A stretch of 63,035 nucleotides of DNA, the filler included, from Asterionella formosa (Eukaryota): NCBI GenBank assembly GCA_002256025.1. It is 28 parts of 28 records of this genome, joined end to end, with 100 filler letters (N's around TTAATTAATTAA, not from the genome) between each part and the next. Parts side by side here need not be neighbours in the genome. Positions count along the whole stretch, not along the records: positions 24,778 to 41,445 come from NKIB01004775.1; 27 more parts are not named here. One strand, 5' to 3'. Below are positions 12,351 through 56,098 of the stretch, in pieces. How positions within the stretch are numbered: position 1 is the stretch's first letter; each line of letters opens with the position of its first letter. The translations under genes and the position numbers were made by a program. The notes under the pieces were generated by a model. That model was not told where the DNA came from. It ran no database searches and worked only from the letters and a program-made list of their open reading frames with translations.

Positions 12351-12374
12351 TCTAGCCGATCGGAAAAGGAGTAT

Positions 12375-12800
12375 GTCATTATGGCACATCTCAATTTTGA
12401 ATCACTATGGCGACATACATTGAATGTTAAAATATGCAACAGCTGTTTCTTAACGAATTTACAAATTCAATTGTTGTCAGCTACTCATCCTTTCCTTATT
12501 TTTCTATATTGTACTTGCTAGAGTTATTGCTGTAGACTTTTTGTAGTCGATTCGAAACGGAGAAGGCCATTGCGGCATATCTCATTTTGGACTTGTCACT
12601 ATGGCAACATACATTGAATATTTAAAATATGCAACTGCTGTTTCTTAACGAATTTACGAATTCAATTGTTGTCAGCTACTCATCCTCTGGTTCTTTTTCT
12701 ATATTGTACTTGCTAGAGTTATCGCTGTAAACTATTTGTAGCTGCTCCGAAACGGAGAAGGCCATTGTGGCACATCTCAATTTCGATTCACTACGGAGAC
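12375..12800. repeat. Two tandem ~190-200-bp units in the family B right arm
   Basis: aaaatatgcaac.gctgtttcttaacgaattt...cgaaacggagaaggccattg occurs twice; the same pair is at ~47231-47620. Confidence 0.85.
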
Positions 12801-16810: not shown

Positions 16811-17849
16811 TGGTTGTTGAGGATACCGGTATGTGATATGCATCAATCCATCATGTCACAAATCATATTATAGTGATGTACATATCAACGCATCCGTATA
16901 CTTAGATCCTATCCACTGTATAATACTATCATATTAACTGTTGACTTTAACTGTATACATTAAACGACATACACATATATTAATTAACATACTTTATGAT
17001 TGCTTGATTTATTTTCTATGATGTCTTGGTAACACTTGCGTATATATTTTATCGTATTTTATTGTCATTGTACTATTTTTACATGATCATATTTGATCAA
17101 AATTATATCATATACATTTCATAAAATCATCATAATTTTAGGATCAATGTATCATAGCTATGTGATGTACTTTAATCAATATTACGTATCATACTTTGGT
17201 GATGTATGCATCGATGTAACCTTATCATGATATCACAGTATCATCTTATCAATCATAATGAGATGATTGGGAAGCAACTGTATTCTGCATCGTGCTACAG
17301 GGTATATTATTATATCACGCAATTTAGTAGCGAAGTCACTCCGCCTGCAATGTACAAAAGTCGACAGTGGACATACCGGTACTCAAACGCTAATCAGGTT
17401 TGAGGCAACGGACAGTGGTTCCAACGAGCGAATGATGATACCACGGGTATCAATTTTTCCAACGAAAGAACTTGTCTCTCTATTGATGAGGATGACACGG
17501 ACACGGACACCGACTTTTCCAGGAGCAAACAACAATGAAGAGACCTACTTGTCGCTCTATTGATGGTAACAAAGATGCGGACAAGTTCAACAGTGAATAC
17601 AAGAACAACATACCAATGAAAACAAGTTGACAGTGGCTGTGTGTACGCAAACGCCAAGCAGGTTTGAAGCAACGGACAATTCCAACAAGCAAATGACGAT
17701 ACAGATATCAAATTCTTCCTAAGAGCAAACAACAATGAAAAGAGCCACTTGCTTTCGCTCTCTTGCTTGATGGTATCAAAGATGCGGACAAGTTCAATAG
17801 TTAATTCAAGTACAGTATGCCAAATGCAGAAACGAGCGAGCGATATGAA
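16811..17849 (+). mobile_element. Second copy of the family A right subterminal region
   Basis: Co-linear with ~35339-36362 at high identity. Confidence 0.92.
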
Positions 17850-18157
17850 NNNNNNNNNNNNNNNNNNNNNNNNNNNNNNNNNNNNNNNNNNNNTTAATTA
17901 ATTAANNNNNNNNNNNNNNNNNNNNNNNNNNNNNNNNNNNNNNNNNNNNCTCTCTCATTTTTCACAAGACGGAAATAATTGTCATATTAATACATCTTAG
18001 AAAAATGTGCGCTATCCTGTAGAACTAAAGAAATTTACTTAGGTCCATTATAAGGGAAATCTCTTCATTGTCCTGGCCCCCCTTAAGTAAAATCAGTCAA
18101 ATTCAGTCACGGCAGTGTACATTGGGGGGTCCAGGACAATGAAGTATACGGTAGTTA

Positions 18158-18500
18158 TTTCAAGTACAGTATGCCAAATGCAGAAACGAGCGAGCGATAT
18201 GAAAATGAAATGCGTTCTAATCAGAATCATTCTATAACTATAGCTATGTGGACAGTAGTCTGTTACGCACATTTTCGTATCTCCTTCTATGCTGAATCTC
18301 AATAGTAGATGTAGTATCATGTGAGAATTGAAAATTTCAACGAGAACAAGTAGAATGTGTTTGTTTACGGGTTGATTGGCGAGATTGTCATGCTGAAGTG
18401 GACGAAACGGATATACTTTGTGCGCTGTGTGCGGAAACATTACGAGTTCGAATGGTTTCTTCTCTCCTGTAAACTCTTAATTGAATGATTATGAACGGGT
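18158..18500 (+). mobile_element. Family A right-subterminal fragment
   Basis: Matches ~36318-36652 (ttcaagtacagtatgccaaatgcagaaacgagcgagcg...gattatgaac). Confidence 0.88.
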
Positions 18501-21363: not shown

Positions 21364-22401
21364 TCTTGATGACCAATTTGATCAATATATGTTCGTTCTG
21401 AGAATATCGATATTCGAAATGACGGCACTGATCTCGTGTACATCGAATACTATTCTGGATATAAATCGGCCTTTTATTGGTGGAGAAAGATGGTTTGGAA
21501 TTTTTGCAACCACAGCAAGCACCGAGATTTTACAAACCTTCCTGATGACCAATTTGATCAATATATGTTCATTCTGAGAATATCGATATTCGCCATGACG
21601 GTATTGCTCTCGTGGACATCGAATACTATGCTGGATAGAAATCGGCCTTAAATTGGTGGAGAAAGGAGGTTTGGAATTCTTGTTGCCACAGCACTGATGA
21701 TCAGTCCACAAGCATCCGAAAATTTACACATCCTGATGCCTCCATTGATCAATATATAGTCGTTCTGAGAATATCGACATTGTTCATGACGACTTTGATC
21801 TCGTGTACATCGAAAACTTTGCTTGATAGAAATCGGTCTTAAATTGGTGGAGAAAGATGGTTTGGGATACTGGTCATGCAGCAGTTCACAAGAACCGAAA
21901 TTTTACACATCTTGATGACCAATTTGATCAATATATGTTCGTTCTGAGAATATCGATATTCGAAATGACGGCACTGATCTCGTGTACATCGAATACTATT
22001 CTGGATATAAATCGGCCTTTTATTGGTGGAGAAAGACGGTTTGGAATTTTTGCAACCACAGCAAGCACCGAGATTTTACAAACCTTCCTGATGACCAATT
22101 TGATCAATATATGTTCATTCTGAGAATATCGATATTCGCCATGACGGTATTGCTCTCGTGGACATCGAATACTATGCTGGATAGAAATCGGCCTTAAATT
22201 GGTGGAGAAAGGAGGTTTGGAATTCTTGTTGCCACAGCACTGATGATCAGTCCACAAGCATCCGAAAATTTACACATCCTGATGCCTCCATTGATCAATA
22301 TATAGTCTTTCTGAGAATATCGACATTGTTCATGACGACTTTGATCTCGTGTACATCGAAAACTTTGCTTGATAGAAATCGGTCTTAAATTGGTGGAGAA
22401 A
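21364..22401. repeat. 546-bp higher-order repeat of three monomers (176+191+179 bp) of the ~180-bp satellite
   Basis: Sequence from 21364 recurs at 21910; about 2 mismatches seen over the 492-bp overlap. Monomers are the reverse complement of those at 10930-12350. Confidence 0.95.
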
Positions 22402-22501
22402 NNNNNNNNNNNNNNNNNNNNNNNNNNNNNNNNNNNNNNNNNNNNTTAATTAATTAANNNNNNNNNNNNNNNNNNNNNNNNNNNNNNNNNNNNNNNNNNN
22501 N

Positions 22502-23472
22502 ACCTGTCCTGTCACTCTTGGTGGGTTTTGTCCCGCCACCCGTTGGTGGAGGTTCAGGTCCTCTGCCACCTGGTGACATGTTGTAGTGAACTTCTTGGCC
22601 ATACCATCCAACCTTTCCTGGTGGTAACTGGTGGGGTTTTCAAGTGAATTTGAACACTCGATTACATCCTCCAGGTCTTCTTCCAGCGAGTCAGCTAGTG
22701 GCTGCCAATAGTTACTACTAGCCACGGTTACTTTGAGTTCCTTCTCTTCCATCACAATCCGCCGGTACAGTGATTCCGGCCGTGGTGGGGCAATCCCCAT
22801 CTCTGGGATTCTGGTAAGCCCAGGTAGGTCCGCAACAACTGGGAAGTGGTCCGAAATATCCCATGTGTCGAGGACCCTGGCAGGGGGGACAGCCGCCACT
22901 GTGTCACCACAATATGTGATGAAATCAATGGCAGGTGTTGGCTGTCCCTCCCGCCGGCTTTGGCGAGTGGAGGCCCCCCCTCGGATGGGTAACACCCGAA
23001 AGGGAAGCCGCCACGGTCCCATCAGAATCTGCAACTCCGTCATCTTCATGTTGAAGTCTCCCATCATCACAATGGGATCTTCTGGAAACTCCCGATGCAG
23101 AGCGTCCAAGGCTCGGGGCAGGGCCCTGAGCACTCGGATGCGATCCGCTCTGCATGGGACATAAATTGTTCCCACAAGAATAGGCCTCAAGATGGTGGCC
23201 CCATAGACTCTCGCAAAAGTCCAAAATGGTGTGGCCTTACCAACTGGGGTACAGTTGAATTTGGTCGACACCAGTATTGCCACACCTCGCTGCGACGCTG
23301 TCAGGTCCCCCATTGCTGTGAGGCAATGGTAACCTGGCAAACGAAGCTGCCAATCCGTTGATCGGAGCAGCGTCTCCTGCACCGCCATAACATCACACCG
23401 GGTTTGTTGCAACAGAAACCGAAGATCGGTTTTTTTCCGCTGCAGCCCGTTGATGTTAAGGGTGCCCACCAC
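22502..23472 (-). mobile_element. Non-LTR retrotransposon ORF2, APE endonuclease domain (partial, open frame)
   Basis: TLNING..AVQET..GVAIL..IYVP..GDFN..IDFI..SDHFPV, the canonical APE motifs. Near-identical copy at 62000-63035. Confidence 0.92.
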
Positions 23473-23639
23473 CAGTGGTGCCCCACAGCCATCTGGTGGT
23501 ATCGTGGGCGTTGGGGATCCGGGTGGGTTTATCTGAGCANNNNNNNNNNNNNNNNNNNNNNNNNNNNNNNNNNNNNNNNNNNNTTAATTAATTAANNNNN
23601 NNNNNNNNNNNNNNNNNNNNNNNNNNNNNNNNNNNNNNN

Positions 23640-27628: not shown

Positions 27629-27648
27629 TACTCCCTCTGTTCCGGTAT
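27629..27648 (+). mobile_element. Tc1/mariner-pogo terminal repeat split by the family A insertion (continues at 37034)
   Basis: tactccctct-gttccggtat joined to agttgcaacc (37034-37043) aligns without gaps to the termini at 39620 and 56607. Confidence 0.75.
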
Positions 27649-27675
27649 CGTCTGCAAATAAAAAGTATCATGCAT

Positions 27676-28442
27676 TTTACAACCTCTTGATATTTTCATC
27701 ATAGTCTGATTGAGTTATGCTCGTGTTTGTTCCTTTGTGAAGGACCATATTTATTTCTTCCCATGCCTCTGAGGTTAGTACTAGCCATATCTGCTGGATG
27801 GCTGTCTTCATCCATCTGCTAGCTTGAACGGTGGTGACCTCCTGATCTGGGTCTGATAACATTGCCCCGACCAGGTTGTTGTTAGATAACCCCTTAGAGT
27901 GAGAATTCTTCCTATTTTTCGTTAGTTGTCCACTGCCATCGTGAGTGCCTTCTTTGTGAGTTGGGGTGTGACCTGTGGAAAGTGTATTCCAAATGGTTTG
28001 GTGGGAGAATTTTGCAGCAAATGAGATATGTAGGCAACAACTATCGATGAGATGTGAGAGCCACCTGGAACTTTGTGAAGTTGCGATGCTAAGTATCATG
28101 TCATGCGTATTCCCCAGTTGTACTTTATTTTCGGATGATTGCAGTTCAAGAGGTTTTCTGTTGACTCATACTCTTTGCAGTGAGGGCATTCTAAGCTCCC
28201 TTTGACTGTAATTTCTCTCCTTGCACCTGTTAGTAACCAGCCATGAACAAATTTCGAAATCATTGTTCTCGCTGACCCTGATTTCGCCTTGAAGGCCATG
28301 GAAAATGCCAACCAGTGTATATTGGAATATTCAAATGCAATCTTATGTTTTTTGAGAAATATTTCTTGTCTTCTGTTTCCTGAATTGAAGACCTTATCCT
28401 ATATGATATTTCACTGTGGATGCGTGCTTTTCCCAATAACAT
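27676..28442 (-). mobile_element. Non-LTR retrotransposon C-terminal (zinc-finger) fragment between two copies of a 26-bp terminal sequence
   Basis: ISKFVHGWL..CPHCKEYESTENLLNC. Flanked by gtctgcaaataaaaagtatcatgcat at 27650-27675 and 28443-28468. Confidence 0.7.
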
Positions 28443-29941
28443 GTCTGCAAATAAAAAGTATCATGCATATAGGATCAAGGGTATCGTACGCTAAGTGGCA
28501 CAGGATTTTCGTATATATGATAATTTTTGGATCAAAAATATGATCAAGGTATCTTGTAACTATGATGATTTATTAATATTTTACCGACCTTGAAGTATAA
28601 TGATAATAAGAACATTATCATCACACAATGTATATAAACTGATCAACAACATTTCCCATCAATATCATAAACCTCATATTATTTTCACTTCTCGTTATCG
28701 CCTGATGTAAATTATAACTACAACGTATCCTAAAACCAGCTCAACTCTATGCTATCATGTGAATTGTTTCATCGTTAATCTATCGTAAACATGATCATAA
28801 TTCTAATCACAGGCAATGTTCAAAATAGATTGAAATGGATCGTAATTTAACTATCAAATTAAGCAATGCTATCTATTAATCTACATGCCAGCAACCCAAC
28901 GTTTCTCTCTCTACTCGGCTCAATGTATATTGTTCCTGTCTCACCCTTTTCTTCCTCTTTTCTGAATCTTGTGCCAAGCAATGCCTTACTAATGTTGTCT
29001 CTCTCTCCCTGCTGTTAGTGTCATTGTGAACTCGCCGGCTATTCCGTTTGATCGGTTTTATTTTCCTATGCATGCAGTTACAGTAACAATGAGAAGGAAT
29101 GATTTGTTAGCTAGTCATGTTACATTGACACAAGAACACGCAATTCCATCGTATCCTCTTGCTTCACTTACCACAAATCAATGCAACTGAGGATGCATAA
29201 GTCTGTAATAATAACTGGTCAGTAAATTCTTGAATAAGTAAGTTTCGGGTATCCAATGTTGTCGAATAAAACTTACCGCTTCATTTTTGTCAGCTTAACT
29301 TTGAGAGAGGGTAAACGTTTTGTCAGTTTTGTTCCAACAGAAGTGAATAGGTCCAACGAGCGACAAGAGCACTTACGCAATTTGGTTTTGTTTTACATAG
29401 GTGCTCCCCAACAAGCGAAACGAGCTGTTGAATCAACTGAGAAAAAAGGAAATGTGCGTTTAGTTAAAAATTTGTTGTTGTCCTGCCTCCCAACGATTGT
29501 CATCCAAGTACCACATTTATGGCTTCATTACCTTAAACATTCTCCATCCTTCGAAGGCGCAATGTGTCGAAGCCACAATGTTTTTCGTTATGTAGTATTG
29601 CGTAAACTTTCTTTTCTTGTCATGTGCTTTACTACGTAAAATTAAAAACCAATAGTCGGAGTAATAAGCAAGCAACAGAACACCATATGTCTATGACTGC
29701 TGCTACTGCATCGGGACAGTCAATCATCATAGTTTTAGGATTGTATGATCGTAAAACTAAAAACCAATAGTCGGAGTAATAAGCAAGCAACAGAAAACCA
29801 TATCTCTATGACTACTGCTACTGCAGTGGGACAGTAAATGAATTTAAGATCATCGAACTTTAAGGAAGACAACGACAACAGTTATCAAGTAGTACAATCT
29901 CTTCAAGAAACCATAAAGAGGTTCATGAAAACAAGCGACAT

Positions 29942-31474
29942 GTGTCAAATACTGCCGGTATGGAACAAAGAAGCAAGTCCCAAAATGAGTTAACAAAGAA
30001 AAAGCGAATAGGCGATTATCCAAAGCAACCCAATTGGCGATTGGGAGACATTGGGGGTAATACCCCATCTGCTACTAGTACAAAGGATCCCATAATTGAT
30101 ACTGACAGCGATGATGAAGATTCTACTTCAGTTATTGATACAAGAAAAATGGCTCCTGTCGATAATACCATTAATAACTCCCGGATGCAGATGGATGACA
30201 TGGTTTGATGTTATAGTTCGTGAATTGCAGGTACTGTAAAAAAGAATATCAATCAAATGTGCTTTTTTCTGGTCCCAAAAGAGAATCAAACATCCCGCCC
30301 TGCCTATCTGGTCCAAGTAGTATGAAAGGCATTTCCAATCACAAACAGGATTGGTTTGCCGAATGTTGCCTAACTCGGCTATACACAGTGAAACCGGAGT
30401 TAGGCAAAGAAGTGGAGAGTGACCCAGAGCTTGCCGATTTCATATGGAATGGTTCTGATGCACTACTTCCAATGAATCAGACCATTGAACATACCAACAA
30501 GGCACGTTTAGATTACATCAAATCAACATTTGGTGGCATGTGCATAAAAAAGTTGAGAGAATGTCAGAATGTATTGAATAATCAATTTAAAGGAATCTTA
30601 GGTAAGTTCTTGCAGGGAGATGCTCTGAAAACATAATGTTTTGAGTCAGTGATTATATTCTTATCAAATATGTTTGAAATAAAAATGCTAACATAATTCA
30701 TGACACACCAGCTGGTCTAACAGAATATAGCTAAGGATATTGATGACTTTATTAGGTGGGCGTTCACGCTTTATCGTTTTGCGCAGTCAAAGTCAAAGGA
30801 CATTGACAGGGGAAGCCAGGCCAAGGATACCAAGTCTGGCGTGATGTTCTTGCTCCGGTGTATTTTATAGGCAGGACAAGCCGTGGAGAACCATTTTTAA
30901 CAGGAGACAAATCTGTTGTGACCAAATTTCAACTCAGTCTTCGGGCACAGTGTGAATTGCAAACACGTTTTGTTGGTTCGCTGATCAATGCCAGTACAGA
31001 AGCATTTTGCTTCTTGGTGCTGAAAGGAAAATTCCGATTGCAACAAAAATATTTGGATTTCAATCCAGATACCCATGAAATTTCAGAGAACGATATTCGT
31101 CATTCTACCGATTTTGTCGACATTGTTGGGAAACCACTTATTAAAAAAGCGTGAGGGAAGAAAGTTCACTTTCAAATGGTCTCACTGATCAATGGACTGA
31201 TGATATTGATTTATTCGTTTGTTATAAGGAAATCTACACTGGACTTTCACAAAAGAATCGATCTGAATATGGAAGGAATCCTAGTGGAATTGCTACTCCC
31301 ACCACAAATATCATCTACCCACACTCATACTTCTCATTTCCCAACGTAAGTGAAGAGGATATGCATCAATATGTTGAATCACTTCAACCAAATGTTCCTG
31401 AAAAGAATATTGATTATAATGGCCGCATTAATCAATGGGACATTGATGACGACGTTGATTTTGAATGGATCTAA
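29942..31474 (+). pseudogene. Family A accessory ORF1, unknown function (fragmented, probably spliced)
   Basis: Consecutive + ORFs 29942-30208, 30220-30636, 30858-31154 and 31151-31474; donor-like G|GTAAGT at ~30602 with gctaac downstream. Confidence 0.55.
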
Positions 31475-31768
31475 TAGAATCCAATGCATACTTAGTAGTT
31501 ACATAATAATTATAGTTAGTGTGAGACTTCTACAATGCAAGCCATATCATAGATGATAGGAAAACATTGATTATGCTCTATACTACTATTAGTTTAGTGC
31601 CGCCTATACTACATGTAGCGGTATACCTCCATTTTTACTACTATGGTGGAGTGACAATTTCACGACTATGTATTTTCCAGCACAGCATGTTCGAAGTGGC
31701 GCTCAATTTATTATTATATATTAATTCATTTCCATTCTATCCTTTTCATATCCTGACTTGGTCATCAT

Positions 31769-33441
31769 TTGCAATTTGCAATGTCTTTGCACACATTGCA
31801 ATGGTGTTATCTGTGTAACTACAAATTTCGGAAGAACAAATCCCCATCTGAGTCTCACAATCGAAATTGTAGCAACCGTGTTTTTTATGCATATGGTCAC
31901 TGTCGACATTGCATGCAGGAACATCGAGTTCCTGGAATACATAGTGAAACAATATATTGCGGTAGTGCATCTAATCATTCAAGGAAAGAAGTTAATGATG
32001 GCAGTGTGGTAACTGCTGCAGCATTTAGGGAGATTAGACAAGAAAAGATTATGTGTCCTATCCTTGGATCAAGTGACCACAATCATCCACTTCATGACGA
32101 CAGCGACGATTCAGTTTATAACAATATTCAGTCACAACAGGACGAAAAATTGAGACTAAAAACTCTCCAAGGGTTGAATTCAGAAACCATGCAATATTCA
32201 GATTTTCAAGATCGCACCGGCTTTCTCCCTGAAAATGCAATGGAAATGCCCCTTCTTCCTCAATTTCAACTTCCAAGTAAACATTCTCTGAACATGCATC
32301 CAATTGATTTAGAACTCATGTTATTCCTCAACGAGAATTATCTTCCACCAGTTTACTTTGATTATCTAATGAAATGGCTGTTCAAGGCAAAAGCAATGAA
32401 ATATTTTGATGGAAGGTATCAAGCTCCATCCTACCAGACTTTGAAGAAACGCATGGATATTTCATTTCCACCAACATTAGCTGGTGGTCAACAGTTGACC
32501 AAACAAATAAAGATTGATAACAATTCAAATATGATCATCCCACGCACACTCCATTATTTCGAACCAGTAAAGCTCATGGCGGGATTGCTACCACGTGATT
32601 CCGATATCATGCAACATTTTGTATGTCACCCACAAGTGAAACTTACAGCTTGTGGAGAACGCATATATGACGAAGTAACTTCCGCGACTTGGTTTGAAAA
32701 TGCATTCAACAATTCTCCTGCATCAGAAAATGGAGTGTTGAAGCCAAGACAGGGTGTTTATTTGTTGCCCTAGCAGTTTTCAGTGATGGTTCACCTATTG
32801 ATAAACAAATGAAACATTGCGAGCATCCGTTTTTGCTGATAATGTTAAACTTAACGTTAGAAGGAAGAAAAAAGTTGATGGATGGCAATTAGTATCTCTT
32901 TTGCCAGACATTGAAGTCAGTGATCTGGAGAAACAAATGAATAATAAGTTATCTGGTGACGACTTGTCCTTATATAGACTCAAATTATATCATTCAGTTA
33001 CAGGATTTCTATTGTCGCCTTTCGAAGAGGGATGCAAACAAGTCATACGATATTTGGGTTCATGGTCTTGGTATGACAAAAGTTTATTTCCAGATTGGAA
33101 TGATCATTGGTGATACAGAAGAACACAATAAAATTTGTGGTTTCAGGGGTGGTAATGGATTATATCGACGATATGTTTGTCGTGATTGCCTGGTTTCAAC
33201 TGAGGATGCTGATAATCCTGATATTGGATGTGAACGTTGTAAAGTGTCAGATGTTAAAAAGTTTTTAAACCAATTTCTTGACAAAAATGCATATCCTGAT
33301 GGAAAATTATCATGTATCCCACCTGAGCATTGTGTCTCCCAATCTAATGGCAAATACGCAACAGCAAACGAGTGGTGCCGTGTTATATCGCATAATCCTA
33401 TTATGCCTGCACTAATAAATCATTTTTTGGTGGTGACTTAG
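31769..33441 (+). pseudogene. Plavaka-type transposase, about three frameshifts, C-terminally truncated
   Basis: GERIYDEVTSATWF..LAVFSDG..EHPFLLIMLNL..WQLVSLLP..LYHSV..LLSPF..IIGDTEEHNKICG..CRDC, matching the Plavaka motif order in sequence. Confidence 0.85.
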
Positions 33442-33455
33442 AAGCAAGTTTGTCA

Positions 33456-35140
33456 TTACTTTGTTGTATCATGGATTTTAGCTACGTAGACAACTTCATC
33501 CTTCTTGAAAGAAGAGTTGCAAGGAACTCGTCCAAATACTTCGTTCAACATTTTTAAATCTAAATAGGATGTCAAAATTTTGTCAATACAAAATTGAAGA
33601 ACAGTTATTGACAACTGAAACATATCCTCACGAGAATTTGTCGTTGTCACTTGAGGCCAAACTGTTCCAAGATGAAAGTATGTTGACTTGGTTGGTGGGT
33701 CAAATGTAATGCATAAGAAATCGTCTGTTCGATCTGTTGCTACCACCTGACGTTTTAAAGCTTTCCAGGACTCAGTCTCCAAACGGAAATGTGCCCGTTT
33801 GCCAAGAAATTTGGTTTTGCCATTCCTTTCTAATTGCAATAGAGTTTCCAACACTTTCATAATTTTAAAAGGTCCACATGACCATCCACTGTCATCTTCT
33901 GGTTGAAATAACATGGAATCATGTTCAGTGGCCATACTGATCTGCAATGGTGCTTTGGTGCCAGTATAGAAAGATCCCGAGAACCCAATTTCTTCAGGCA
34001 TATGGGATTCTTGTGGAAGATATCCTGTATCGGTGCATAAAAATTCCAATTCTTTTCTGCATCCGGGGATGATGCAGTACTTACGGGCAAGGTGAATTAC
34101 TTGATCATAATGTTCATCCACACTTGCATCTTTTCCTGGGTCACGGACTTGACATAATCAATCATTTATAGCAAAAAGATAATGCACAAAATGATTGTTT
34201 TCCTCCTCATCTGATCTTTTGCAATACACAATTAGCACATAGTTACTTTCGTGATGAAGTTGATGACAATCACCTTGGTATATATATGGATTGTTATTAC
34301 CCTTTTCTGGGTTCTCATCCAGATCAAATATAATCTTTACATCACTTGGATGAAGTTCATGAATTATACAATTGATCATAGAGGTAATTGTTTCAAGGTC
34401 CCAATATGCAAGATCTTTAAAATCTGAAGATGATTTTTTGATACCTTTGACTCCATAAAATACAGAGGCGTAATTGCATATATCTTGCGGGGTACGAGTT
34501 TTCAACTCTTTCCACAATTTTAGTTGTCCATGCGATTTCGGCAAACTCAAGGAAAATGCCGTTTGCTTTGGCATAATCACTCTACACATTTCACATGCCA
34601 AGCGACTCTTCACAAAAGTAGCTGCCTTCTGGATTGTTTTCAATGATTTTACAAAGAAATTCTTTTTCTTCCATATATGATTTGGAAAAGATTCAATTTT
34701 GTGTTTCTGACTTCGTTCCCTAATCAGAGCATCAACTGCCTTAGCCAGCATCACATCTCTGTCTGCATTGATCTTCTTGAATTCGAGGTCTTGATCTAGC
34801 TCAGACTTTTTCTTGAATATCTGTTCTTTTAGGAATGCAATAGTTTCTCTGCTTTAATGATGGTCATCTTGATGTTCTGGACGGATAGTGAGATATGTTT
34901 CTTGGTTTTGCATTTTTTCAACCATTTCTACTTCTGAAGAAATGTCTGCCACATTTCCGCCGATATTTTCATTCATCGCATGATTTTTTTCATCAAATGA
35001 ATGAGAATCACTGTGTTCTTCTTCATTACGAAGACCAACTGTTTGGGTTTCCTCTTCGAAAGCAATCTTTCCATCTTTTCAATCTCAGCCACTATTGTAT
35101 CGGCATTAGTCAAAGGGCCAGAAGACAATGATGTAAAACA
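33456..35140 (-). pseudogene. Ulp1-like (C48/papain-fold) cysteine protease carried by family A
   Basis: ORFs 34158-34754 and 33456-34121 are in the same frame, split by one TGA. Motifs NNHFVHY (His), VRDP (Asp) and FQPEDDSGWSCGPF (Gln..Cys). 5' boundary approximate. Confidence 0.6.
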
Positions 35141-38100
35141 GTGGAAGGGAAACGCGGAGCTTATTGCAGCGCTTGTGGAGGTGGAACTGGTGTGAGACGA
35201 TGGCAACCGAGTGTAGTAATTGTTGAACAGAGCACAGTGTAATATGCATGTTCCGCCAGTGTAGTGTTTACACAATACACATGCTGGCATATATATAGCT
35301 AAAACAACGAAAGTCGACACGACAATGAACGTGATGGCTGGTTGTTGAGGATACCGGTATGCGATATGCATCAATCCATGTCACAAATCATATTATAGTG
35401 ATGTACATATCAACGCATCCGTATACTTAGATCCTATCCACTGTATAATACTATCATATTAACTGTTGACTTTAACTGTATACATTAGACGACAAACATA
35501 TATATTAATTAACATACTTTATGATTGCTTGATTTATATTCTGTGATGTATCGATAACACTTGCGTACAAATTTTATCGTATTTTATTGTCATTGTACTA
35601 TTTTTACATGATCATATTTTGATCAAAATTATATCATAAACATTTTATAAAATTATCATAGTTTTATGATCAATGTATCATAGCTATGTGATGTACTTTA
35701 TTCAATATTACGTATCATAATTTGGTTATGTATGCATCGATGTAAACCTATCATGATATCACATTATCAACTTATCAATCATGATGAGATGATTGGGAAT
35801 CAACTGTATTCTGCATCGTGCTACGGGGTATATTATTATATCACGCAATTTAGTAGCTAAGTCACTCCGCCTGTAATGTACAAAAGTCGACAATTCACAT
35901 ACTCACACGCTAATCAGGTTTGAGGCAACGGACAGTGGTTCCAACGAGCGAATGATGATACCACGAGTACCAATTTTTCCAGCGAAAGAACTTGTCTCTC
36001 TATTGATGAGGATGACACGGACACCGACTTTTCCAGGAGCAAACAACAATGAAGAGACCCACTTCGTCTGCGTCGCTCTATTGATGGTAACAAAGATGAG
36101 AACAAGCTCAACAGTGAATACAAGAACAACATACCAATGAAAACAAGTTGACAGTGTGTGTACACACACGCCAAGCAGGTTTGAGGCAACGGACAATTCC
36201 AACAAGCAAATGACGATACAGATATCAAATTTTTCCTACGAGCAAACAACAATGAAAAGAGCCACTTGCTTTCGCTCTCTTGATGGTATCAAAGATGCGG
36301 ACAAGTTCAATAGTCTATTCAAGTACAGTATGCCAAATGCAGAAACGAGCGAGCGATATGAAAATGAAATGCGTTCTAATCAGAATCATTCTATAACACT
36401 AGCTATGTGGAAAGTAGTCTGTTACGCACATTTTCGTATCTCCTTCTATGCTGAATCTCAATAGTAGATGTAGTATCATGTGAGAATTGAAAATGTCAAT
36501 GAGAACAAGTAGAATGTGTTTGTTTTCGGGTTGATTGGCGAAATTGTCATGCTGAAGTCGACGAAACGGATTTACTTTGTGCACTGTGTGCGGAGCCATT
36601 ACGAGTTCGAATGATTTCTTCTCTGTAAACTCTTAATTGAATGATTATGAACAATGGTTCACTGCACATGACGATTACTCGAAGATATAATGATCACTTG
36701 ACCAACAAATTGAAGATGTTATCGCAAACATTCATTCCGCTTGTCATCGCTAGTATTTCGTTGTTGTTGCAAAAATCAGAGTGATGACGGATGGAAATGA
36801 CGAGCCGAATTACATTACTTTAGCTGGTACATTATCCTACCAAGCAATTCGAAGACAATAATCAAATAGAAACAATACATATAATAATTAAATATATGTA
36901 GTCAAAAGGGTTACTATTTAAATTACAAAGGCATTTATCAAAATTATTAGATGATACAACGAAATATTATGATCAGATGATCACAATCCTATGATGCATC
37001 ATGGAAATATGATAGTTTTTATTTGCAGACGATAGTTGCAACCTACCTTTAGGTCACTGGTGCCTCACATGAAGGGCAACCTCCAATAAACCTCCTTCTA
37101 GTAGCCCCTCCTCTATAAAAATGATTCCGAACATAATGGTGATTATAATAGATGTTCTAATAATGATATAGCCTAGAAAAAAGGTGAACCTGACTTCATT
37201 TTATTTTTTTGGCGCATTTTTCGTAAAATCGCACCCCGATCAGAACGTTTGCTCAGCGGGAACCCCCTTTTTCGTTGACCCTTCGTTGTTCAATAGACAT
37301 TATTAGAAATGAATTGTATAATATTTCTACTAGCATCGGGTACAACTACTGGTAGCTACTAATCGTTGTAGCATATGATGATGCTAGCATGCAAATAGTT
37401 TCTCAAATCCTAATCAATATAAAACCGTTCATTATTGGTTGTTTTCATCATTTCGGCCGGAAAAGGAGAACGATTTGATTTTGGAGAGAATAAAGCAACG
37501 TAAGCAAGATTTGCTTACTATTGTATTGCTTAGTAGGGCCACCCCTCTATTGCCCTGGTCATTGTTGTGTTTTCTTGACGTTCTTTCCCTGTTTTGGAGA
37601 ATAAAATTAGCATAAAACCTAGTACGTCACTAAGTGGTGATCACCATGCATACAGATGATTTTAAAGAGTGAATTGATGACGTCTTCTATGTAAATAAAC
37701 GCCTGTACTGCGTCAAATTATCAATTTCAGCAAAATGACCACAACTTGAAGTACTTCATTCTTTGCATAAGGGTCATTCTCTGAAAACTATTCATATTTG
37801 GCCGCAAGTTCTACTAGTTGTTGTCAGCAATTCTATTCGTAGTCTGCAAGTTCTAGTCTTTGTCAGCAAATTCTAAATGTAGAATGATTCCTATTGGTAT
37901 TTCGGAGCAAGAAGACATCAGTTTGCTGAACTGCTTGATCAGGCAGCAAATCCAAGTCATGTTGCTTCATAGTTTGATAATGCAAACAACCGTCATCAGT
38001 CAATAAGAGTAATGTTTTCATAAATTACTGAAGGAGTTTTATTTTCATCGAAAGCTGGCCTAGCTACCTCATCCGGCAGGCATGGGGCGAATCATTGGGA

Positions 38101-38378
38101 GTGAATTGTAACTGTGGGCATAAAATGTGTGCTACCTGGTACCAGACCTTCCAGAACAATGAAGTTAAACGTTAAATGCATATGTCCCGTAGACTGAGTC
38201 ATAGTCGTATGTAACAAAAGGTCTGGCGATGTACGGAGTACCGCTTTTAGTCTCTACATACCGGTACTACCCCGCCGTAATGATGGTGATGGTGAAATGG
38301 ATCTGACAGTGGTTTGCCAGGAGACCAACAATCGTTGTTCGCAATACATCATACCAGCAACTTTCAATATTTGATTCA

Positions 38379-39293
38379 ATGACATCTCCTACATCCACCA
38401 CACAGCCAGAACTCGATTTGAATGCACCCATTTACGATAAAGCGTTCGCCGAAAGAGCCTTTTGGAAAGTTTTCAATGAAAAGTCTACCAAACTCTTTTC
38501 TGACTGGCCCGCCGTGTGGAGAACTAGTGATGACTACAAGGAGGAACAAGCCGCGATAAAGCGCGTCGCAAAGCCTTTTTTTTTTGGTGGCATCACATCC
38601 ATCGTTATCTTTGCCAACTTTCGGCTCATGGCGAATCCGTCCTTTCAAAGAATGTTGGGACGCCGTCATGTCCGTACTTTACCCAAGAACAAGGCCAAGA
38701 CCAAGCCTTCTGAACAGCACCAGAGTCGTGAAAGAAATGTTCGAGAACAAAGAGAAGAGTTCAAGTCGTCGCTGACTCTGGAAAGAGACAAAAAAAAGGA
38801 GTTGGTTCGGAAGGAAATCGATCTCTTGTCCGGTTTACCCCTTGACTTTTTCTTGAGCACGATTGTCGGGATGTCTGTCACTTCCTTTTTATTTACTGGC
38901 CGAGCAAACATGGACCGAAACCGTGATGCCTTCGAGACAGCGCCGCTACTGCCGGGAAAGTCTTTGGTAGCTCAGTACATGTGCAATGACATGCTGAATG
39001 TGCACAATCGAGTGACAACGCCATTGTGGAAAGAGGCGGAGAACGATGTCATCCTATGTAGTTTTCGCAAGTTTGTGAGGAATTGCCAATTGCGCGACAA
39101 GGAAGAGCAGCGGATACGGAAGGAGCTACATTTGAACGCGAATGACGAAGTTATGATTCCCCTACCCGGCATTGCCAACCCTGAGCCACGCGAAATCGAC
39201 AAAAAAGGAAATCGTTTTGATTTACCAACAGACCCTTTCCATTTCTTCAATAGTGATTACAAGCGTGCTGCTCGTGCCAAGAAAGACGAATAA
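38379..39293 (+). CDS. Unknown protein (304 aa) with two hydrophobic segments
   Basis: Long uninterrupted ORF, caATG context, coding-like GC; hydrophobic FFFGGITSIVIFANF and LPLDFFLSTIVGMSVTSFLF segments. Confidence 0.8.
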   Translation: MTSPTSTTQPELDLNAPIYDKAFAERAFWKVFNEKSTKLFSDWPAVWRTSDDYKEEQAAIKRVAKPFFFGGITSIVIFANFRLMANPSFQRMLGRRHVRTLPKNKAKTKPSEQHQSRERNVREQREEFKSSLTLERDKKKELVRKEIDLLSGLPLDFFLSTIVGMSVTSFLFTGRANMDRNRDAFETAPLLPGKSLVAQYMCNDMLNVHNRVTTPLWKEAENDVILCSFRKFVRNCQLRDKEEQRIRKELHLNANDEVMIPLPGIANPEPREIDKKGNRFDLPTDPFHFFNSDYKRAARAKKDE

Positions 39294-46093: not shown

Positions 46094-47085
46094 TTTAGTT
46101 AACAATTTGTTGTTGTGCTGCCTGTCTCCCAACGATTGTCATCCAAGTAGCTACCACATTGATGGCTTCATTACCTTAAACATTCTCCATCCTTCGAAGG
46201 CGCAATGTGTCGAAGTCACAATGTTTTTCGTTATGTATTGCAAAAAATTTCTTTTCTTGTCATGTGCTTTACTAGTACGACGTATCTTTTCATGAAGCAG
46301 CAGGCATTGTTTGTTAACATGACAGAACGATTTGAAAAATATACTGGCCATGAAGATACTAATAAAATTTGTAAATATATATATATATATATATATATAT
46401 AGCATTGGACATTTTATAAAATTCAAAGGCGCTCTCGATATGGAACATCTGATATGGTTGAGATGGCCATACTCGCATATACATAATTCGAAAATACTCA
46501 ATGCACTATATGTCCATTGTTTTCCACGACTACGTGTACCGGTATTATCTCTGAAATTTGTTTGCATCGATATTTTCTACGTCCGTTGAAACTAATTATT
46601 TAGACCGTTCAAATGCCCCTTTTTTGGGCGGGAGCTCTTCATGTGTACCGGTACATCATATGACAATAACAATGTATCATTTATACATACAGGGTACCAG
46701 TAGCAGGTAGTAAGTGATGTACTGGGGGTAGTCGGAGTAGTACCGGTAAACTAGCAACAGAACACCATATGTTCAGGACTGTTGCTACTGCAGTGGGACA
46801 GTAAATCATCATAGTTTTAGGATTTTATGATCGTAAAATTATGATCCAAAAGAACACCATATGTTCATGACTGTTGCTACTGCAGTGGGACAGTAAATCA
46901 TCATAATTTTAGGATCATATCATCGTAAAACTAAAAACCAATGGAATACCATATATTCAGGACTGTTGCTACTAGCTACCGTGGGACAATAAATCATCAT
47001 AGTTCTAGGATTGTATGATCGTAAAACTAAAAACCAATAGTCGGAGTAATAAGCGAGCAACAGAACACCATATGTTCTGGCATAC
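46094..47085 (+). mobile_element. Family A left-internal region with ~90-bp tandem repeats
   Basis: Matches ~29460-29635, then about 740 bp absent from the long copy, then rejoins ~29636. 46570-47085 is mirrored by 61215-61899. Confidence 0.85.
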
Positions 47086-47230: not shown

Positions 47231-48142
47231 ACGGCAACATGCATTGAATATTTAAAATATGCAACAGCTGTTTCTTAACGAATTTGCGAATTCAATGGTT
47301 GTCAGCTACTCATCCTTTCCATCTTCTTCTATATTGTACTTGTTAGAGTTATCGCTGTAGACTATTTGTAGCTGCTCCGAAACGGAGAAGGCCATTGTGG
47401 CACATCTCAATTTCGAATCACTACGGCGACATGCAAGGTTAAAATATGCAACAGCTGTTTCTTAACGATTTTACGAATTCAATGGTTGTCAGCTACTCAT
47501 CCTTTCCATCTTCTTCTATATTGTACTTGTTAGAGTTATCGCTGTAGACTATTTGTAGCTGCTCCGAAACGGAGAAGGCCATTGTGGCACATCTCAATTT
47601 CGATTCACTACGGAGACATGCAATGCTCAATGATGCTCAACGAGTACCAACGGTGCTTCATTTCCAATCTGCAGGCTATTGTAATCTCTACAATCAACAA
47701 TGACTTAATAATGTGTCTACAACATCAACTACTACTACGTGTCCTGAATTCTACTGTGTGAATCTTCCTCTTGCATGTGTTATTCTTTGCCAGTTCAGAT
47801 CAAAGAAATATGTCGGAGCGGAAAAAATAATAAGTGAATCGGAATTGGCGAGCAGCATAATATTGCGGCAGAGCAGAATAATTTCGCTTTTAAACTGTTG
47901 CGATGGCTAGTTGGTCAACATATATTGTCACGAACACACATAATTATTGGCGTGATCACATAATTATTCGATAAGTGAAAAAAAATTTTGTTTAACCCGA
48001 ATAAATTAGGGAAAAAGTAGCATAATATTTCAAAAAAGTAACATAATATTTTAGAAAAGTAACATAATATTTTAAAAAATTAGCATAAATACGTCACTTT
48101 AGACATAAATTCGAAAAAGTGCCGTAAACGGCGTCTTAGATG
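47231..48142 (+). mobile_element. Family B right end (second copy)
   Basis: Co-linear with ~12410-13333; ends GCCGTAAACGGCGTCTTAGATG|taggg. Confidence 0.92.
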
Positions 48143-48367: not shown

Positions 48368-49404
48368 GATTCGTTGGATTCCATATATTTTATCACCCTC
48401 CCTGATCTCGAAACCAACAATCCATGGTCCCATTCATAATGTGGGTTGCATGAGTGTCATGAATTTTCTGAGTGACATTCTTTGAAAGTAGGTCTGCAGG
48501 ATTCTTTAAAGTATTCACATAGTCAACTCTAATATCCCCAGCCTTCACCTTCTCTCGAATGAAATGATATCTCACATCAATGTGCTTAGTTCGTGAACCA
48601 ACTTGCTGATTCTTTGATAGAAAAATTGCACCTGTATTGTCTTCTGCAATGATACTGGGCATTTCCACGTTTTCAACTTCATTGAGTAGATTCATTATAA
48701 AAGTAGTTTCCTTTGATCCAGTTTCCTTTGATCCATCTGATAGAGCCACATACTCTGCTTCAGTGCTGGAAGCATTAACAATCTTCTGTCCTTTCGAAAT
48801 CCAATTCACTAGTGATGCACCACCAATCGTGCCCAAATATGCACTTGTCGATTTCCTTGTATCTGGAGTGTCCCCAAATGAGCTGTCTACCACGTCTTGA
48901 ACTCGTAATTCATGTGGCGGTCTCATTTTTAATTTTCTGTTCCTTTCATCAGTTGCAATGAAACCTAACAAACGTTCAACAGCACTCCAATGGGCATCAC
49001 CTGGATTCTCTAAATGTTGAGAAAGTTCACGACATGCATTCACGCATATTGGTCCAACTTTCTTCACAAAATACAACAATTTTCCAACCATTGAACGATA
49101 TTCTTTATGGAGAATCACTTTGTCTGGATTCATTCTGAGAACAATTCCTGGAAATGCTGGGGTTGATGCATCTCTTGGATACTTTCCAAAAATATCATGA
49201 TAATCTTGTAGCATAACATGCACAAAATCCTCCATGCTCGACTCCAAGTAGCGTCCCACTTTATCTAGGCCCCAATCGTACCACACTCCCAAATGCTTCT
49301 TCAAAGGGCCAAGCTCCTTAATTGTGAAGTGTTTCTTGATTTCATTTTTGAACCATTTAATATCATTTGGCTTTCCAGCAATTGCACAATCATCGACATG
49401 TGTG
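48368..49404 (-). mobile_element. Copia RT/RNase H C-terminus with PPT and LTR start
   Basis: HVDDC..YRSMVGKLLY..DSSFGD..RKSTS..SSTEAEYVAL..EDNTGAI..RTKHIDVRYHFIRE..NPADLLSK; GGGAGGG then TG. In-frame GSKET duplication. Confidence 0.93.
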
Positions 49405-49504
49405 NNNNNNNNNNNNNNNNNNNNNNNNNNNNNNNNNNNNNNNNNNNNTTAATTAATTAANNNNNNNNNNNNNNNNNNNNNNNNNNNNNNNNNNNNNNNN
49501 NNNN

Positions 49505-50350
49505 GGTGGCGTGGATGCTGGGCCAGCCCGTCGATGCTGCATAGGCACCTTCGCCGAGTCGAACCCGGTGGTGCCCGCCCTTGCGATCGGGCAAGGCGGT
49601 CAGGAACGGCTTCTGATGATGGCGTTCGAAACCCGAGATGGCCCGCGTCGTGCCGATGCCGCACGGCCCGTACCACATCATCTGCGGGTGCCAGAAGCGG
49701 GTCATGCCCATGCTCTTCAGGTCACTGCGGTCATAGCGTCCCAGGCCGCCTATCATCTCCAGCACGAGGTTGAGGCACGCTCGGCCCTGCTCGGGATCGG
49801 ATGCACCTAGCAAGAGTCCATCCTGCGTGCGAGGCCCTGGTACCAGCACGTCGAGCCCCGGGCTGGGTGGCAGCAGAGGCCGTCCAGCCTGACGCGCCAG
49901 ATCCAGAACGTCAAGCAGGATGCGGGCCTCGGCAATCCGCCCATCGACGACGCGATAGAACTCGCCGAACCGCAGCCAGGCGGGTTCGCCTGTGGCGGGG
50001 ATGCCGAACAAGGCCTGCGTGAACGTTCCCAGGTAGTGACCGATACAGGTCACCCACAGGCCCTCGCCCCCGCAGATGTGGCCATCCCAGCGCCCTCCGA
50101 AGAACAGATCGGTGCGTCGCTCAATGTCGGGGAATGCGGAGAACAGCGGAGCATGGAAGCCGGCAGCGACGGCTTCCGGCCCGGCCAGCTCGTTGACGGG
50201 ATGCGAGATTACCCACTGCGAGTCCGGCGTGAGGAGCTCTCGCGCGGCGGCCTCGAATCCAGGGCCCGGCAATCGCTGCAACGCAGCCCACACCGCGTGC
50301 TTGGCATCGGAAAGCTCTTCGTCGGGGCAGGCGCTGTTGTTGGTTGGCAT
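49505..50350 (-). CDS. Bacterial-type tandem SnoaL-like/NTF2-fold ester (polyketide) cyclase, 3' truncated
   Basis: HPVNELAG..PLFSAFPDIERR..GHYLGTF..GIPATG..LRFGEFYRV..MWYGPCGIGTTR..FE.HHQ.PF. Intronless, on a contig far more GC-rich than the rest. Confidence 0.8.
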
Positions 50351-50370
50351 GATCAAGTTGATACTCTGTG

Positions 50371-50388
50371 GTGCATAGGTATGCAGTC
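50371..50388. promoter_or_regulatory. Palindromic operator TGCATAggTATGCA (GntR-like), copy 1
   Basis: Identical 18-mer gtgcataggtatgcagtc at 50371 and 50484, upstream of the cyclase start. Confidence 0.6.
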
Positions 50389-50483
50389 GCGGTGAATAGT
50401 ACGCAACGACGATGGCGGCTTCAACCGCAAAAGAGCTAAATACGGGAAGACACTGATGCCGTTTGCCGAGTCGGTTGCCTAGA

Positions 50484-50501
50484 GTGCATAGGTATGCAGT
50501 C
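50484..50501. promoter_or_regulatory. Palindromic operator TGCATAggTATGCA (GntR-like), copy 2
   Basis: Same 18-mer, 113 bp from copy 1. Confidence 0.6.
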
Positions 50502-50640
50502 CTGCTTGCCGATCTGGCCAGCAGGAAGTTCCGACAGGGGNNNNNNNNNNNNNNNNNNNNNNNNNNNNNNNNNNNNNNNNNNNNTTAATTAATTAANNNN
50601 NNNNNNNNNNNNNNNNNNNNNNNNNNNNNNNNNNNNNNNN

Positions 50641-54048: not shown

Positions 54049-54477
54049 CAGTTGATTAAACAGCTCGTTTCGCTTGTTGGGGAGCACCAATGTAAAACAA
54101 AACCAAATTGCGTAAGTGCTCTTGTCGCTCGTTGGACCTATTCACTTCTGTTGGAACAAAGCTGACAAAACGTTTTTACCTTCTCTCAAAGTTAAGATGA
54201 CAAAAATGTACCGGTAAGTTTTATTCAACAACATTGGATACCCGAAACTTACTTATTCAAGAATTTACTGACAAGTTACTATTACAGACTTATGCATCAG
54301 TTGCATTGATTTGTGGTAAGTGAAGCAAGAGGATACGATGGAAATGCGTGTTCTTGTGTCAATGTAACATGACTACTAGCTAACAAATCATTCCTTCTCA
54401 TTGTTTCTGTAACTGCATAGGACCATAAAACCAATCAAACAACGGAATAGTCGGCGAGTTCAGAGTGACACTAACAG
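54049..54477 (-). mobile_element. Family A left-subterminal fragment fused to family C-like sequence
   Basis: Reverse complement of ~29012-29432, then switches to sequence matching ~41368-41408. Confidence 0.8.
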
Positions 54478-55184
54478 ATGTAACGACTATGCGAATCTTT
54501 TTGTGCCAGTTGTTCAATAATTTCATCCGAATGCTCCTGAATTGAAAGGGTTTGCTGCAATGTCAATTGAATCCTCGACTCAAATAAAAGAACTCTGCAA
54601 TACAGTTGAATGGTGAGTGTGTTCTTGTTGTTTACCTAAATGCTAGTATGGCTTGTCAGCTCACGCATTGTTGTTGACAACAGGCGGGGACAATGAGGTC
54701 CGGAATGAACTGTGTGTTGCTTTCTGCTGTTGCTAGTTCTATCATATACATTACTGACACACTGTTGTTATGAAAATCTCTGCAGGTCAATGAAGAAGTC
54801 ATTTCAAGTACAAGAAGGAAATCAGTGTGTGAGGATGCATTCATGTTGCAACTTCGTAGAATGATGCCTGTTCAAGAGTGAATAATTTCCCCCTTCTGAA
54901 TGAATGGCTTCTCCTTGTCTTGCAATGTCCTTACAGATGTCTCATAATGCCTGCCTTCTCAAGACTGAAGATTCCATTCTGATAGAACAGCTTTGTTTGA
55001 TTGCATATCGAGATTTGTTTCCCATGTAATGTGAAATACCGGTTGTTGAATTAGTAATCAACATTATTTGATAGTACTTTTAAANNNNNNNNNNNNNNNN
55101 NNNNNNNNNNNNNNNNNNNNNNNNNNNNTTAATTAATTAANNNNNNNNNNNNNNNNNNNNNNNNNNNNNNNNNNNNNNNNNNNN

Positions 55185-56098
55185 ATGTCTAGCTAACAAG
55201 TCATTCCTTCTCATTGTTACTGTAACTGCATAGGACAATAAAACCGATCAAACGGAATAGCCGGCGAGTTCAGAATGACACTAACAGAAGGGAGAGAGAC
55301 GCAACATTAGTAAGACATTGCTTGGCACAAGATTCAGAATAGAGGAAGGAAAGGGCGAGACAGGAACAATATACATTGAGACGAGTGGAGAAGAGAGAAA
55401 TATTCCTTGGGTAGCTGTCGAAACAGAAATATCATTGCTAAATTTGTTAATTAAATTACGATCATCCATTCCAATCCTTTTTGAACAATGCTTGTGATTA
55501 GAATTATGATCATGTTTAAGATAGATTTAGATGAAACAATTCACATGATAGCATAGAGTTGAGCTGATTTTAGGATGCATTGTAATAATAATTTACATCT
55601 GGCAATCATGAAAAGTGAAAAAAAATATGAGAAGGTTTATGATATTGATGAGAAATGTTGTTGATCAGTTGATATACATTGTGTGATGATGATATTCTTA
55701 TTATCATTATATTTCAAGGTTGGTAAAATATTAATAAATCATCATAGTTACAAGATGAATCATAGTTTTGATCCGAAAATTATCATATATACTACGAAAA
55801 TCCTGTGCCACCTAGCGTACGATACTCTTGATCCTATATGCATGATACTTTTTATTTGCAGTAGAAGGTTTATGATATTGATGAGAAATGTTGTTGATCA
55901 GTTGATATACATTGTGTGATGATAATGTTCTTATTATCAATATACTTCAAGGTTGGTAAAATATTAATAAATCATCATAGTTACAAGATACCTTGATCAT
56001 AGCTTTGATCCAAAAATTATCATATATACGAAAATCCTGTGCCACTTAGCGTACGATACCCTTGATCCTATATGCATGATACTTTTTATTTGCAGACG
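55185..56098 (-). mobile_element. Family A left end with a ~230-bp tandem duplication of the terminus
   Basis: Reverse complement of 28443-29115; ~55630-55861 is repeated at ~55863-56095; ends TTTGCAGACG|tagtgg. Confidence 0.9.

What the first reader, a model, noticed from the sequence alone, without database searches (positions are those of the whole stretch)
27649..37031. Three-gene Plavaka-type transposon with defined CGTCTG termini and a 2-bp TSD
Seen: a 23-bp TIR with one mismatch, AT on both sides, and a third copy ending at the same base (56098). Removing the element and one AT rebuilds tactccctct-N10-agttgcaacc, which aligns without gaps to two intact mariner/pogo termini in this window (39620, 56607), independently fixing both ends and the TSD length. 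Inside are unknown ORF1, a Plavaka-motif transposase and a convergent protease. Known: Plavaka transposases are CACTA-related and described mainly from fungi. Inference: this is a full end-to-end architecture for an abundant stramenopile lineage whose termini lack the CACTA motif. I cannot confirm it is absent from TE databases.
Basis: partly seen in the sequence, partly recalled or inferred. Interest (0 to 1): 0.8.

Follow-up and report, generated by a model that had tools for sequence, protein, structure and literature searches.

The report
Dead Plavaka transposon with CG ends
This is a broken copy of a very abundant algal cut-and-paste jumping gene of the known Plavaka group, whose ends start with CG instead of the TG or CA described so far and which carries a SUMO-protease-like passenger gene; it is real but fairly ordinary.

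Summary
The ends are right: 23-bp inverted repeats (1 mismatch), 220 exact CG-starting ends in the genome, and a 2-bp target duplication (13 of 23 paired copies, 2.4 expected; empty host-mariner sites carry one AT). The transposase is Plavaka-type (Pfam hit on a sister copy; D-D-CxxC-HxxxH-E across copies). The convergent gene is probably a Ulp1/SENP-clan protease. ORF1 remains unknown. The window copy is not the full architecture. The family is about 11.9 kb; this copy lacks about 3.4 kb, including a 2.1-kb deletion that removes the transposase's catalytic E. It also holds a missed 767-bp LINE-like insert flanked by a 26-bp duplication of the left terminus. Copies are decayed (mostly 2-7% substitutions, excess CpG transitions). 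Non-CACTA ends with 2-bp TSDs are already published for fungal PlavakaA (TGT) and PlavakaB (CATCA), and 12-15-kb Plavaka/EnSpm families with 2-bp TSDs are curated in a brown alga. What I did not find in print is the CG tip, one transition from both known types, and the protease cargo on a Plavaka. The scan has already noted similar Plavaka-plus-protease elements on other pieces of this genome.

The parts
27647..27648 (+). left 2-bp target-site duplication (AT)
   Evidence: host-mariner copies carry one AT here
27649..27671 (+). left 23-bp TIR starting CGTCTG
   Evidence: 103 exact left ends in the genome; flanks unrelated in 30 of 30 examined
27650..27675 (+). first copy of a 26-bp duplication flanking the insert
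   Evidence: identical to 28443-28468
27676..28442 (-). 767-bp foreign insert, piece of a LINE-like repeat lacking its last ~550 bp
   Evidence: 6 other loci match it without the terminus; the donor has a shared end with AATAAA; read depth about 1000-fold below the element; the LINE label rests on recalled motifs, with no Pfam support
28443..29634 (+). second copy of the duplication, then the family's left non-coding arm
   Evidence: all other left ends continue into this sequence; loose ends of 79 contigs pile at 28443
29635..29839 (.). remnant of an internal tandem array (92-115-bp units); about 650 bp are missing around it
29864..31474 (+). ORF1 remnant (about 630 aa in the family; acidic N-terminus, Cys-rich middle), broken, about 290 bp deleted at 30203/4; function not established
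   Evidence: 159 matches among 150 scored of 635 candidates; no family hit
31781..33444 (+). Plavaka transposase, N-terminal half only: D1 at 32779-93, D2 at 33106-20, CxxC at 33178-89; frameshifted
   Evidence: 35-45% identical to intact P0001 residues 10-570; Pfam Plavaka on sister copy L088; motifs
33443..33444 (.). junction of a 2.1-kb deletion removing transposase residues ~571-1219 (HxxxH and catalytic E) and the 3' end of the convergent gene
33444..35108 (-). convergent gene remnant: acidic/coiled-coil N-terminus plus probable CE-clan (Ulp1/SENP-like) protease; H at 34182-99, D at 34134-48, Q..C at 33873-905; one internal stop, a frameshift, predicted start deleted
35109..37008 (.). right non-coding arm with internal repeats
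37009..37031 (-). right 23-bp TIR
   Evidence: 100 exact right ends; 69 contigs with loose ends at 37031
37032..37033 (+). right 2-bp target-site duplication (AT)
27629..27648 (+). terminus of the interrupted host repeat (TA+CTCCCTC, Stowaway/mariner-like by recalled motif), continuing at 37034 to about 37318
54049..56098 (-). third, partial copy: left arm with a tandem 236-bp duplication of the left end; flank TA

Best explanation
A non-autonomous, internally deleted copy of a high-copy ~11.9-kb Plavaka (CMCT / EnSpm-like) DNA transposon. Shown: sharp CGTCTG...CAGACG ends, a 2-bp TSD without a fixed target dinucleotide (AT-rich bias), a DDE transposase of Plavaka type, and decay of all copies seen. 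Inferred from CACTA/RAG-type enzymes: the intact element's transposase bound the TIRs and subterminal arms, cut at the CG tips and inserted with a 2-nt stagger. ORF1 most likely served as the DNA-binding helper (TnpA-like role; about 45% confidence). The CE-clan protease most likely removed SUMO or a related tag from the transposase or from chromatin to blunt silencing (about 50%). After insertion into a mariner-like end, this copy gained a LINE-like piece in its left TIR with a 26-bp duplication. It also lacks about 3.4 kb (lost before or after insertion), so it cannot make active transposase. It could still be moved in trans, because both outer TIRs are intact.
For: Ends. TSD: 13 of 23 pairs match at 2 bp (expected 2.36; 0 of 100,000 permutations), 1 of 23 at 3 bp and 0 of 23 at 4-5 bp. 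12 of 19 host-repeat copies lie in exact register with one AT, and none is 2 bp longer. Transposase: Pfam PF18759 on sister copy L088 (26.9 bits, cut-off 26.3) and on a 51-75% identical sister family (62.5 bits). The intact 1219-aa relative P0001 maps end to end on L088, L097 and L100; the motifs are conserved in 7 relatives. Protease: H-D-Q-C order; the 17 best fold matches are all CE-clan proteases; the best Foldseek hit is NEDP1. Decay: 67 of 72 loci differ from the family consensus by 2.4-6.7%; CpG transitions 10.3% against 2.7% at other C/G; the longest open transposase frame among fetched loci is 398 aa.
Against: 10 of 23 pairs lack a 2-bp match (6 differ at one base, 4 at both), more than 4-5% decay alone predicts; wrong pairing of ends or collapsed assembly is likely but was not tested. 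The window's own ORF pieces give no Plavaka hit. The protease call rests on a low-confidence model (pLDDT 54, pTM 0.43; best Z 4.8; no Foldseek match at E<=0.001) and has no Pfam or PDB sequence hit. The role of ORF1 has no direct support. Near-identical young copies may be collapsed in this fragmented assembly, so an intact copy is not excluded.
Confidence: 0.9

Rival explanations
1. The window holds a complete, representative (possibly autonomous) element of 9.4 kb.
For: Both TIRs and the TSD are intact; three genes are present in order.
Against: Four other copies (L088, L095, L097, L100) carry sequence missing at 33443/4 (about 2.15 kb in L088 and L097), and it encodes the transposase's HxxxH and E. 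The first 793 bp include a foreign insert absent from the other 29 of 30 left ends. All three genes have stops or frameshifts.
Confidence: 0.01
2. The true ends are TG or CA (as in PlavakaA/B), or the C belongs to the target, so the CG tip is an artefact.
For: 61 TG-starting and 49 CA-starting ends exist in the genome.
Against: With the same pattern CG counts 220, and transversions count only 12 (RG) and 11 (CY). TG and CA are the two deamination products of CG and appear in similar numbers. Empty sites lack the C.
Confidence: 0.05
3. The convergent gene is not a protease, or is an inactive fold used for binding.
For: No Pfam or PDB sequence hit; low-confidence model; the atlas gave only weak unrelated leads.
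Against: H and D are kept in relatives at about 30% identity; Q..C follows in the expected order; fold ranks 1-17 are all CE-clan. ULP1 domains are common cargo of CACTA elements (PMC2528002, passages).
Confidence: 0.15
4. The 767-bp piece with its 26-bp duplication arose by repair copying from another locus or by a template switch, not by retrotransposition.
For: It lacks the donor's last ~550 bp and ends within 3 bp of where copy L002 ends.
Against: A perfect 26-bp flanking duplication is typical of target-primed insertion (established knowledge).
Confidence: 0.4

Closest known systems
PlavakaA of Agaricomycotina fungi (Kojima 2025, PMC12730594; passages and supplement parts 1, 19, 20 and searches seen)
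   Same: Plavaka transposase; 2-bp TSD; short TIRs; similar terminal pattern (TGTCGGAAAA / TGTCGCAAAA against CGTCTGCAAA); 8-9-kb size class
   Different: First base C instead of T; algal host; about 11.9 kb; convergent CE-clan protease gene ('Ulp1' and 'protease' have 0 occurrences in that paper's main text)
PlavakaB of fungi (same paper)
   Same: 2- or 3-bp TSD; PlavakaB-1_GyCo starts CATCTGGAAAT, 9 of 11 bases as here
   Different: Second base G instead of A; no TET/JBP gene was seen in this family; no 3-bp TSDs (1 of 23, chance level)
Ectocarpus EnSpm-1/-2_Ec32 (called Plavaka-1 etc. in other tables; PMC12477816, passages and supplement rows seen)
   Same: Stramenopile host; 12-15 kb; 20-25-bp TIRs; 2-bp TSD; genes on opposite strands; nested retroelement pieces
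   Different: Their ends are CACCC/CACTG/CACAG; two spliced genes, no protease reported in the rows seen
Red-algal giant Plavaka with PAG1-3 (bioRxiv 10.1101/2025.02.11.637652; passages seen, supplements closed)
   Same: High-copy, degenerate, multi-gene Plavaka shaping an algal genome
   Different: 17-19 kb; cargo is methylase/SET and ParB/2OG-oxygenase genes, not a protease
Plant CACTA elements with ULP1 domains (PMC2528002; passages seen)
   Same: CMC-type transposase with Ulp1-like cargo
   Different: Those are Tnp2-type CACTA families; canonical CACTA ends and 3-bp TSDs are recalled for plant CACTA, not checked in that paper

Membership tests
CMCT clade (EnSpm/CACTA, Mirage, Chapaev, Transib, Plavaka, ESTA, Lanisha) | DDE transposase with C(2)C and H(3-4)H between the second D and E | tested here: met
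   D1, D2 and CxxC in the window; HxxxH and E in family copies L097 and L100 and in relatives; deleted from the window copy
CMCT clade | TSD of 2-5 bp | tested here: met
   2 bp
CMCT clade | 5'-CA..TG-3' ends 'in most cases' | tested here: not met
   CG..CG; the feature is not universal, PlavakaA being a stated exception
Plavaka | Pfam PF18759 above the curated cut-off | tested here: met
   L088 piece 26.9 bits (cut-off 26.3); sister family 62.5; intact relatives 46.7-61.7; window pieces alone no hit
Plavaka | placement in the Plavaka clade of a transposase tree | not testable with these tools
   published reference transposases were not available whole (supplement cells and trees cut at 400 characters)
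PlavakaA | termini TGT..ACA | tested here: not met
   CG 220 against TG 61
PlavakaA | 2-bp TSD | tested here: met
PlavakaB | termini CATCA..TGATG | tested here: not met
   CGTCT; CA variants 49
CE-clan (Ulp1/SENP, C48-like) protease | His-Asp-(Gln)-Cys in order | tested here: met
   all present in one open frame in L088
CE-clan (Ulp1/SENP, C48-like) protease | CE-clan fold | tested here: inconclusive
   ranks 1-17 are CE-clan but Z<=4.8, rmsd 3.4-6.0, 89-141 aligned, model pLDDT 54
CE-clan (Ulp1/SENP, C48-like) protease | isopeptidase activity | not testable with these tools
   needs an assay

The most novel reading that the evidence does not exclude
A third terminal type of Plavaka, widespread in diatom-like algae, whose cut site is a CpG. 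Host methylation would then act on the very bases the transposase cuts, and deamination would turn the tip into either known type (TG of PlavakaA, CA of PlavakaB/CACTA), making CG a bridge between them. The element would offset silencing with its own SUMO-type protease.
Probability: 0.2. Interest if true: 0.55.

Novelty: new variant of a known kind. Interest (0 to 1): 0.3.

Why it matters
It adds a well-delimited algal Plavaka family with defined ends, TSD and gene order, useful for repeat annotation of a genome where the family is very abundant. It widens the known terminal motifs of the CMCT clade (CG beside CA and TG) and adds Plavaka to the transposon groups that carry Ulp1-like proteases. 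It gives no new mechanism, and no active copy was found.

Tried and rejected
Pfam on 17 raw window ORFs: no Plavaka or protease hit. ORF1: no relative among 291 candidates of 320-2000 aa, no Pfam family, no usable atlas hit; only a weak pairwise likeness (E 0.013, 32 aa) to the accessory ORF of a second Plavaka family, kept as a lead. Protease: PDB sequence search gave only antibody chains; the atlas gave unrelated bacterial leads under 0.8; alignment A2 of 46 fragments was unusable. TSDs of 1, 3, 4 and 5 bp were rejected. Termini of the second, younger Plavaka family and of the sister family at L067 were not found in the stretches fetched. A whole-element MAFFT run timed out. RNA runs X15 and X18 are contigs only; a 3.7-kb PolyA contig covers ORF1 and the protease region of a transposase-less copy, which does not show transcription. 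Read depth was not used as a copy number. Literature searches that gave no diatom Plavaka description: 16 of 20 papers listed; 2 of 4 listed. A look-up of earlier findings by sequence found nothing.
Full report
Observation. The element lies on one contig with no N inside. Its first 23 bases and the reverse complement of its last 23 agree at 22 positions, and AT flanks both sides. The copy at 56098 ends at the same base, with a TA flank. The rebuilt empty site matches the two in-window mariner-like ends without gaps (25/30 and 22/30, against 16/30 and 15/30 with both ATs kept).

Ends. Exact 24-nt patterns occur 103 times (left) and 100 times (right) in the 68-Mb assembly, with 0 for the reversed controls. 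In the 30 left and 30 right ends examined, similarity stops at the C, and the flanking dinucleotides vary, with an AT-rich bias. In run X1, which may be the source sample, loose ends pile at 28443 (79 contigs) and 37031 (69 contigs) with unrelated flanks. One degenerate pattern gives CG 220, TG 61, CA 49, RG 12 and CY 11. CG is therefore the family's tip, and TG and CA fit its deamination. Internal CpGs show the same bias: 10.3% transitions against 2.7% at other C/G and 1.6% at A/T, over 67 loci.

TSD. I fetched 80 stretches around ends and found 23 loci with both ends, counting the window and one pair split over two stretches. For two loci with alternative pairings one pairing was counted. 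13 of 23 share 2 bp (2.36 expected, 0 of 100,000 permutations); 8 of 23 share 1 bp (7.05 expected); 1 of 23 shares 3 bp. The 10 misses exceed simple decay and probably include mismatched ends; I did not test this. Independently, 12 of 19 other copies of the host repeat read through the site in exact register with one AT, and none is 2 bp longer.

Bases 27650-27675 recur exactly at 28443-28468 around a 767-bp piece. The other 29 left ends run straight into the sequence at 28469. The piece matches 6 other loci that lack the terminus. It belongs to a repeat of about 1.3 kb with a shared AATAAA end and is read about a thousand times less deeply than the element. Its LINE-like label rests on recalled motifs only. 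Against a majority consensus of 11,878 bp, the window copy lacks about 470, 180, 290, 2,100 and 370 bp. The 2.1-kb gap at 33443/4 is filled in L088 and L097, and largely in L095 and L100.

Genes. The transposase matches the intact 1,219-aa relative P0001 over residues 10-570 in the window and almost end to end in L088, L097 and L100. D1, D2 and CxxC are in the window; HxxxH and the catalytic E fall in the deletion. Pfam Plavaka is reached by an L088 piece, a sister family and four intact relatives, but not by the window's pieces. The genome has 43 Plavaka matches among 50 scored, many from a second, younger family only about 28-31% alike over a short stretch. The convergent gene has H, D and Q..C in Ulp1 order, with H and D kept in relatives at about 30% identity. 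A low-confidence model (pLDDT 54) ranks 17 CE-clan proteases first among 48,161 chains, at Z 3.3-4.8: probable, not proven. ORF1 is high-copy (159 matches, 150 of 635 candidates scored) and has no identified relative.

State of the family. 67 of 72 loci differ from the consensus by 2.4-6.7% substitutions, and five by 9.8-15.9%. The longest open transposase frame in the fetched loci is 398 aa. Near-identical DNA occurs in 20 of 24 listed runs from 13 studies, mostly freshwater. An intact copy could be hidden by assembly collapse. The host is called a diatom in earlier scan notes; I did not test that.

Mechanism. Shown: ends, TSD, transposase class and decay. Inferred from CACTA/RAG-type enzymes: cut-and-paste with a 2-nt staggered insertion, ORF1 as DNA-binding helper, and the protease as an anti-silencing de-SUMOylase. 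The window copy is dead but could be moved in trans.

Comparison with what is known. Kojima 2025 (PMC12730594; passages plus supplement parts 1, 19, 20 and searches) places Plavaka in the CMCT clade. It defines PlavakaA (TGT..ACA, 2-bp TSD) and PlavakaB (CATCA..TGATG, 2-3 bp). Lack of the CACTA motif is thus the known state, and this tip is one transition from each type. Plavaka is also reported in red algae (passages), Spirogyra and other Archaeplastida (passages), Amoebidium (passages) and Auxenochlorella (passage). The Ectocarpus library holds 12-15-kb EnSpm/Plavaka families with 20-25-bp TIRs, 2-bp TSDs and CAC ends (supplement rows). ULP1 cargo is known on plant CACTA (passages). Searches gave no diatom Plavaka description and no CG-ended family. 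Repbase and Dfam were not available, and several supplements could not be seen.

Verdict. A real, well-delimited, dead copy of an abundant Plavaka family; a modest new variant (CG tip, protease cargo). The scan has 19 notes mentioning Plavaka on other pieces of this genome, several describing a three-gene element with a Ulp1-like protease. I did not check that they are the same family. Interest 0.3.

Noticed in passing
L167, L175, L178 (host mariner-like end, position matching window 27648): 3 of 19 host-repeat copies carry 5-7-nt insertions at exactly the site where this element sits (3 of 10 insertions of 3 nt or more over 150 positions). In L178 the insert is an inverted copy of the adjacent bases, like a hairpin excision footprint. 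The loci were selected by the downstream sequence, so there is some bias.
   Followed up: partly
L068-L081, L182: A second, much younger Plavaka family (open frames up to 770 aa, near-identical copies) with a different downstream accessory ORF (L182:4628-5671); its ends were not found.
   Followed up: partly
L067 / L142:6192-7643: A sister Plavaka family 70-74% identical in DNA to this transposase; the best Pfam Plavaka hit in the genome.
   Followed up: partly
window 55863-56098: The third copy has its left 236 bp tandemly duplicated; L158 has nested right ends; L035 is an insertion of the element into its own left arm.
   Followed up: partly
window 16811-18496, 46094-47075, 57457-58330, 61254-61867: Further fragments of the same family's arms and tandem array on the short N-joined contigs.
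   Followed up: no
window 22450-23379 and 62000-62877: An 878-bp identical inverted pair; the frame at 22450-23583 (-) has an endonuclease/exonuclease/phosphatase domain (E 4.6e-14), probably a recently active LINE.
   Followed up: no
window 49457-50584 (-): SnoaL-like domain protein (E 4e-12).
   Followed up: no
window 48393-49448 (-): Weak RVT_2 (copia-type reverse transcriptase) match below cut-off.
   Followed up: no
window 38307-39293 (+): Intact-looking 328-aa frame with no Pfam family, next to the element.
   Followed up: no
window 10954-12860, 21364-22385, 47252-47671, 60864-61209: Another repeat family with 190-200-bp tandem units in both orientations.
   Followed up: no
P0085: A 1,016-aa relative seems to hold two copies of the protease-like domain, one with Q..C and one cut short.
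   Followed up: no
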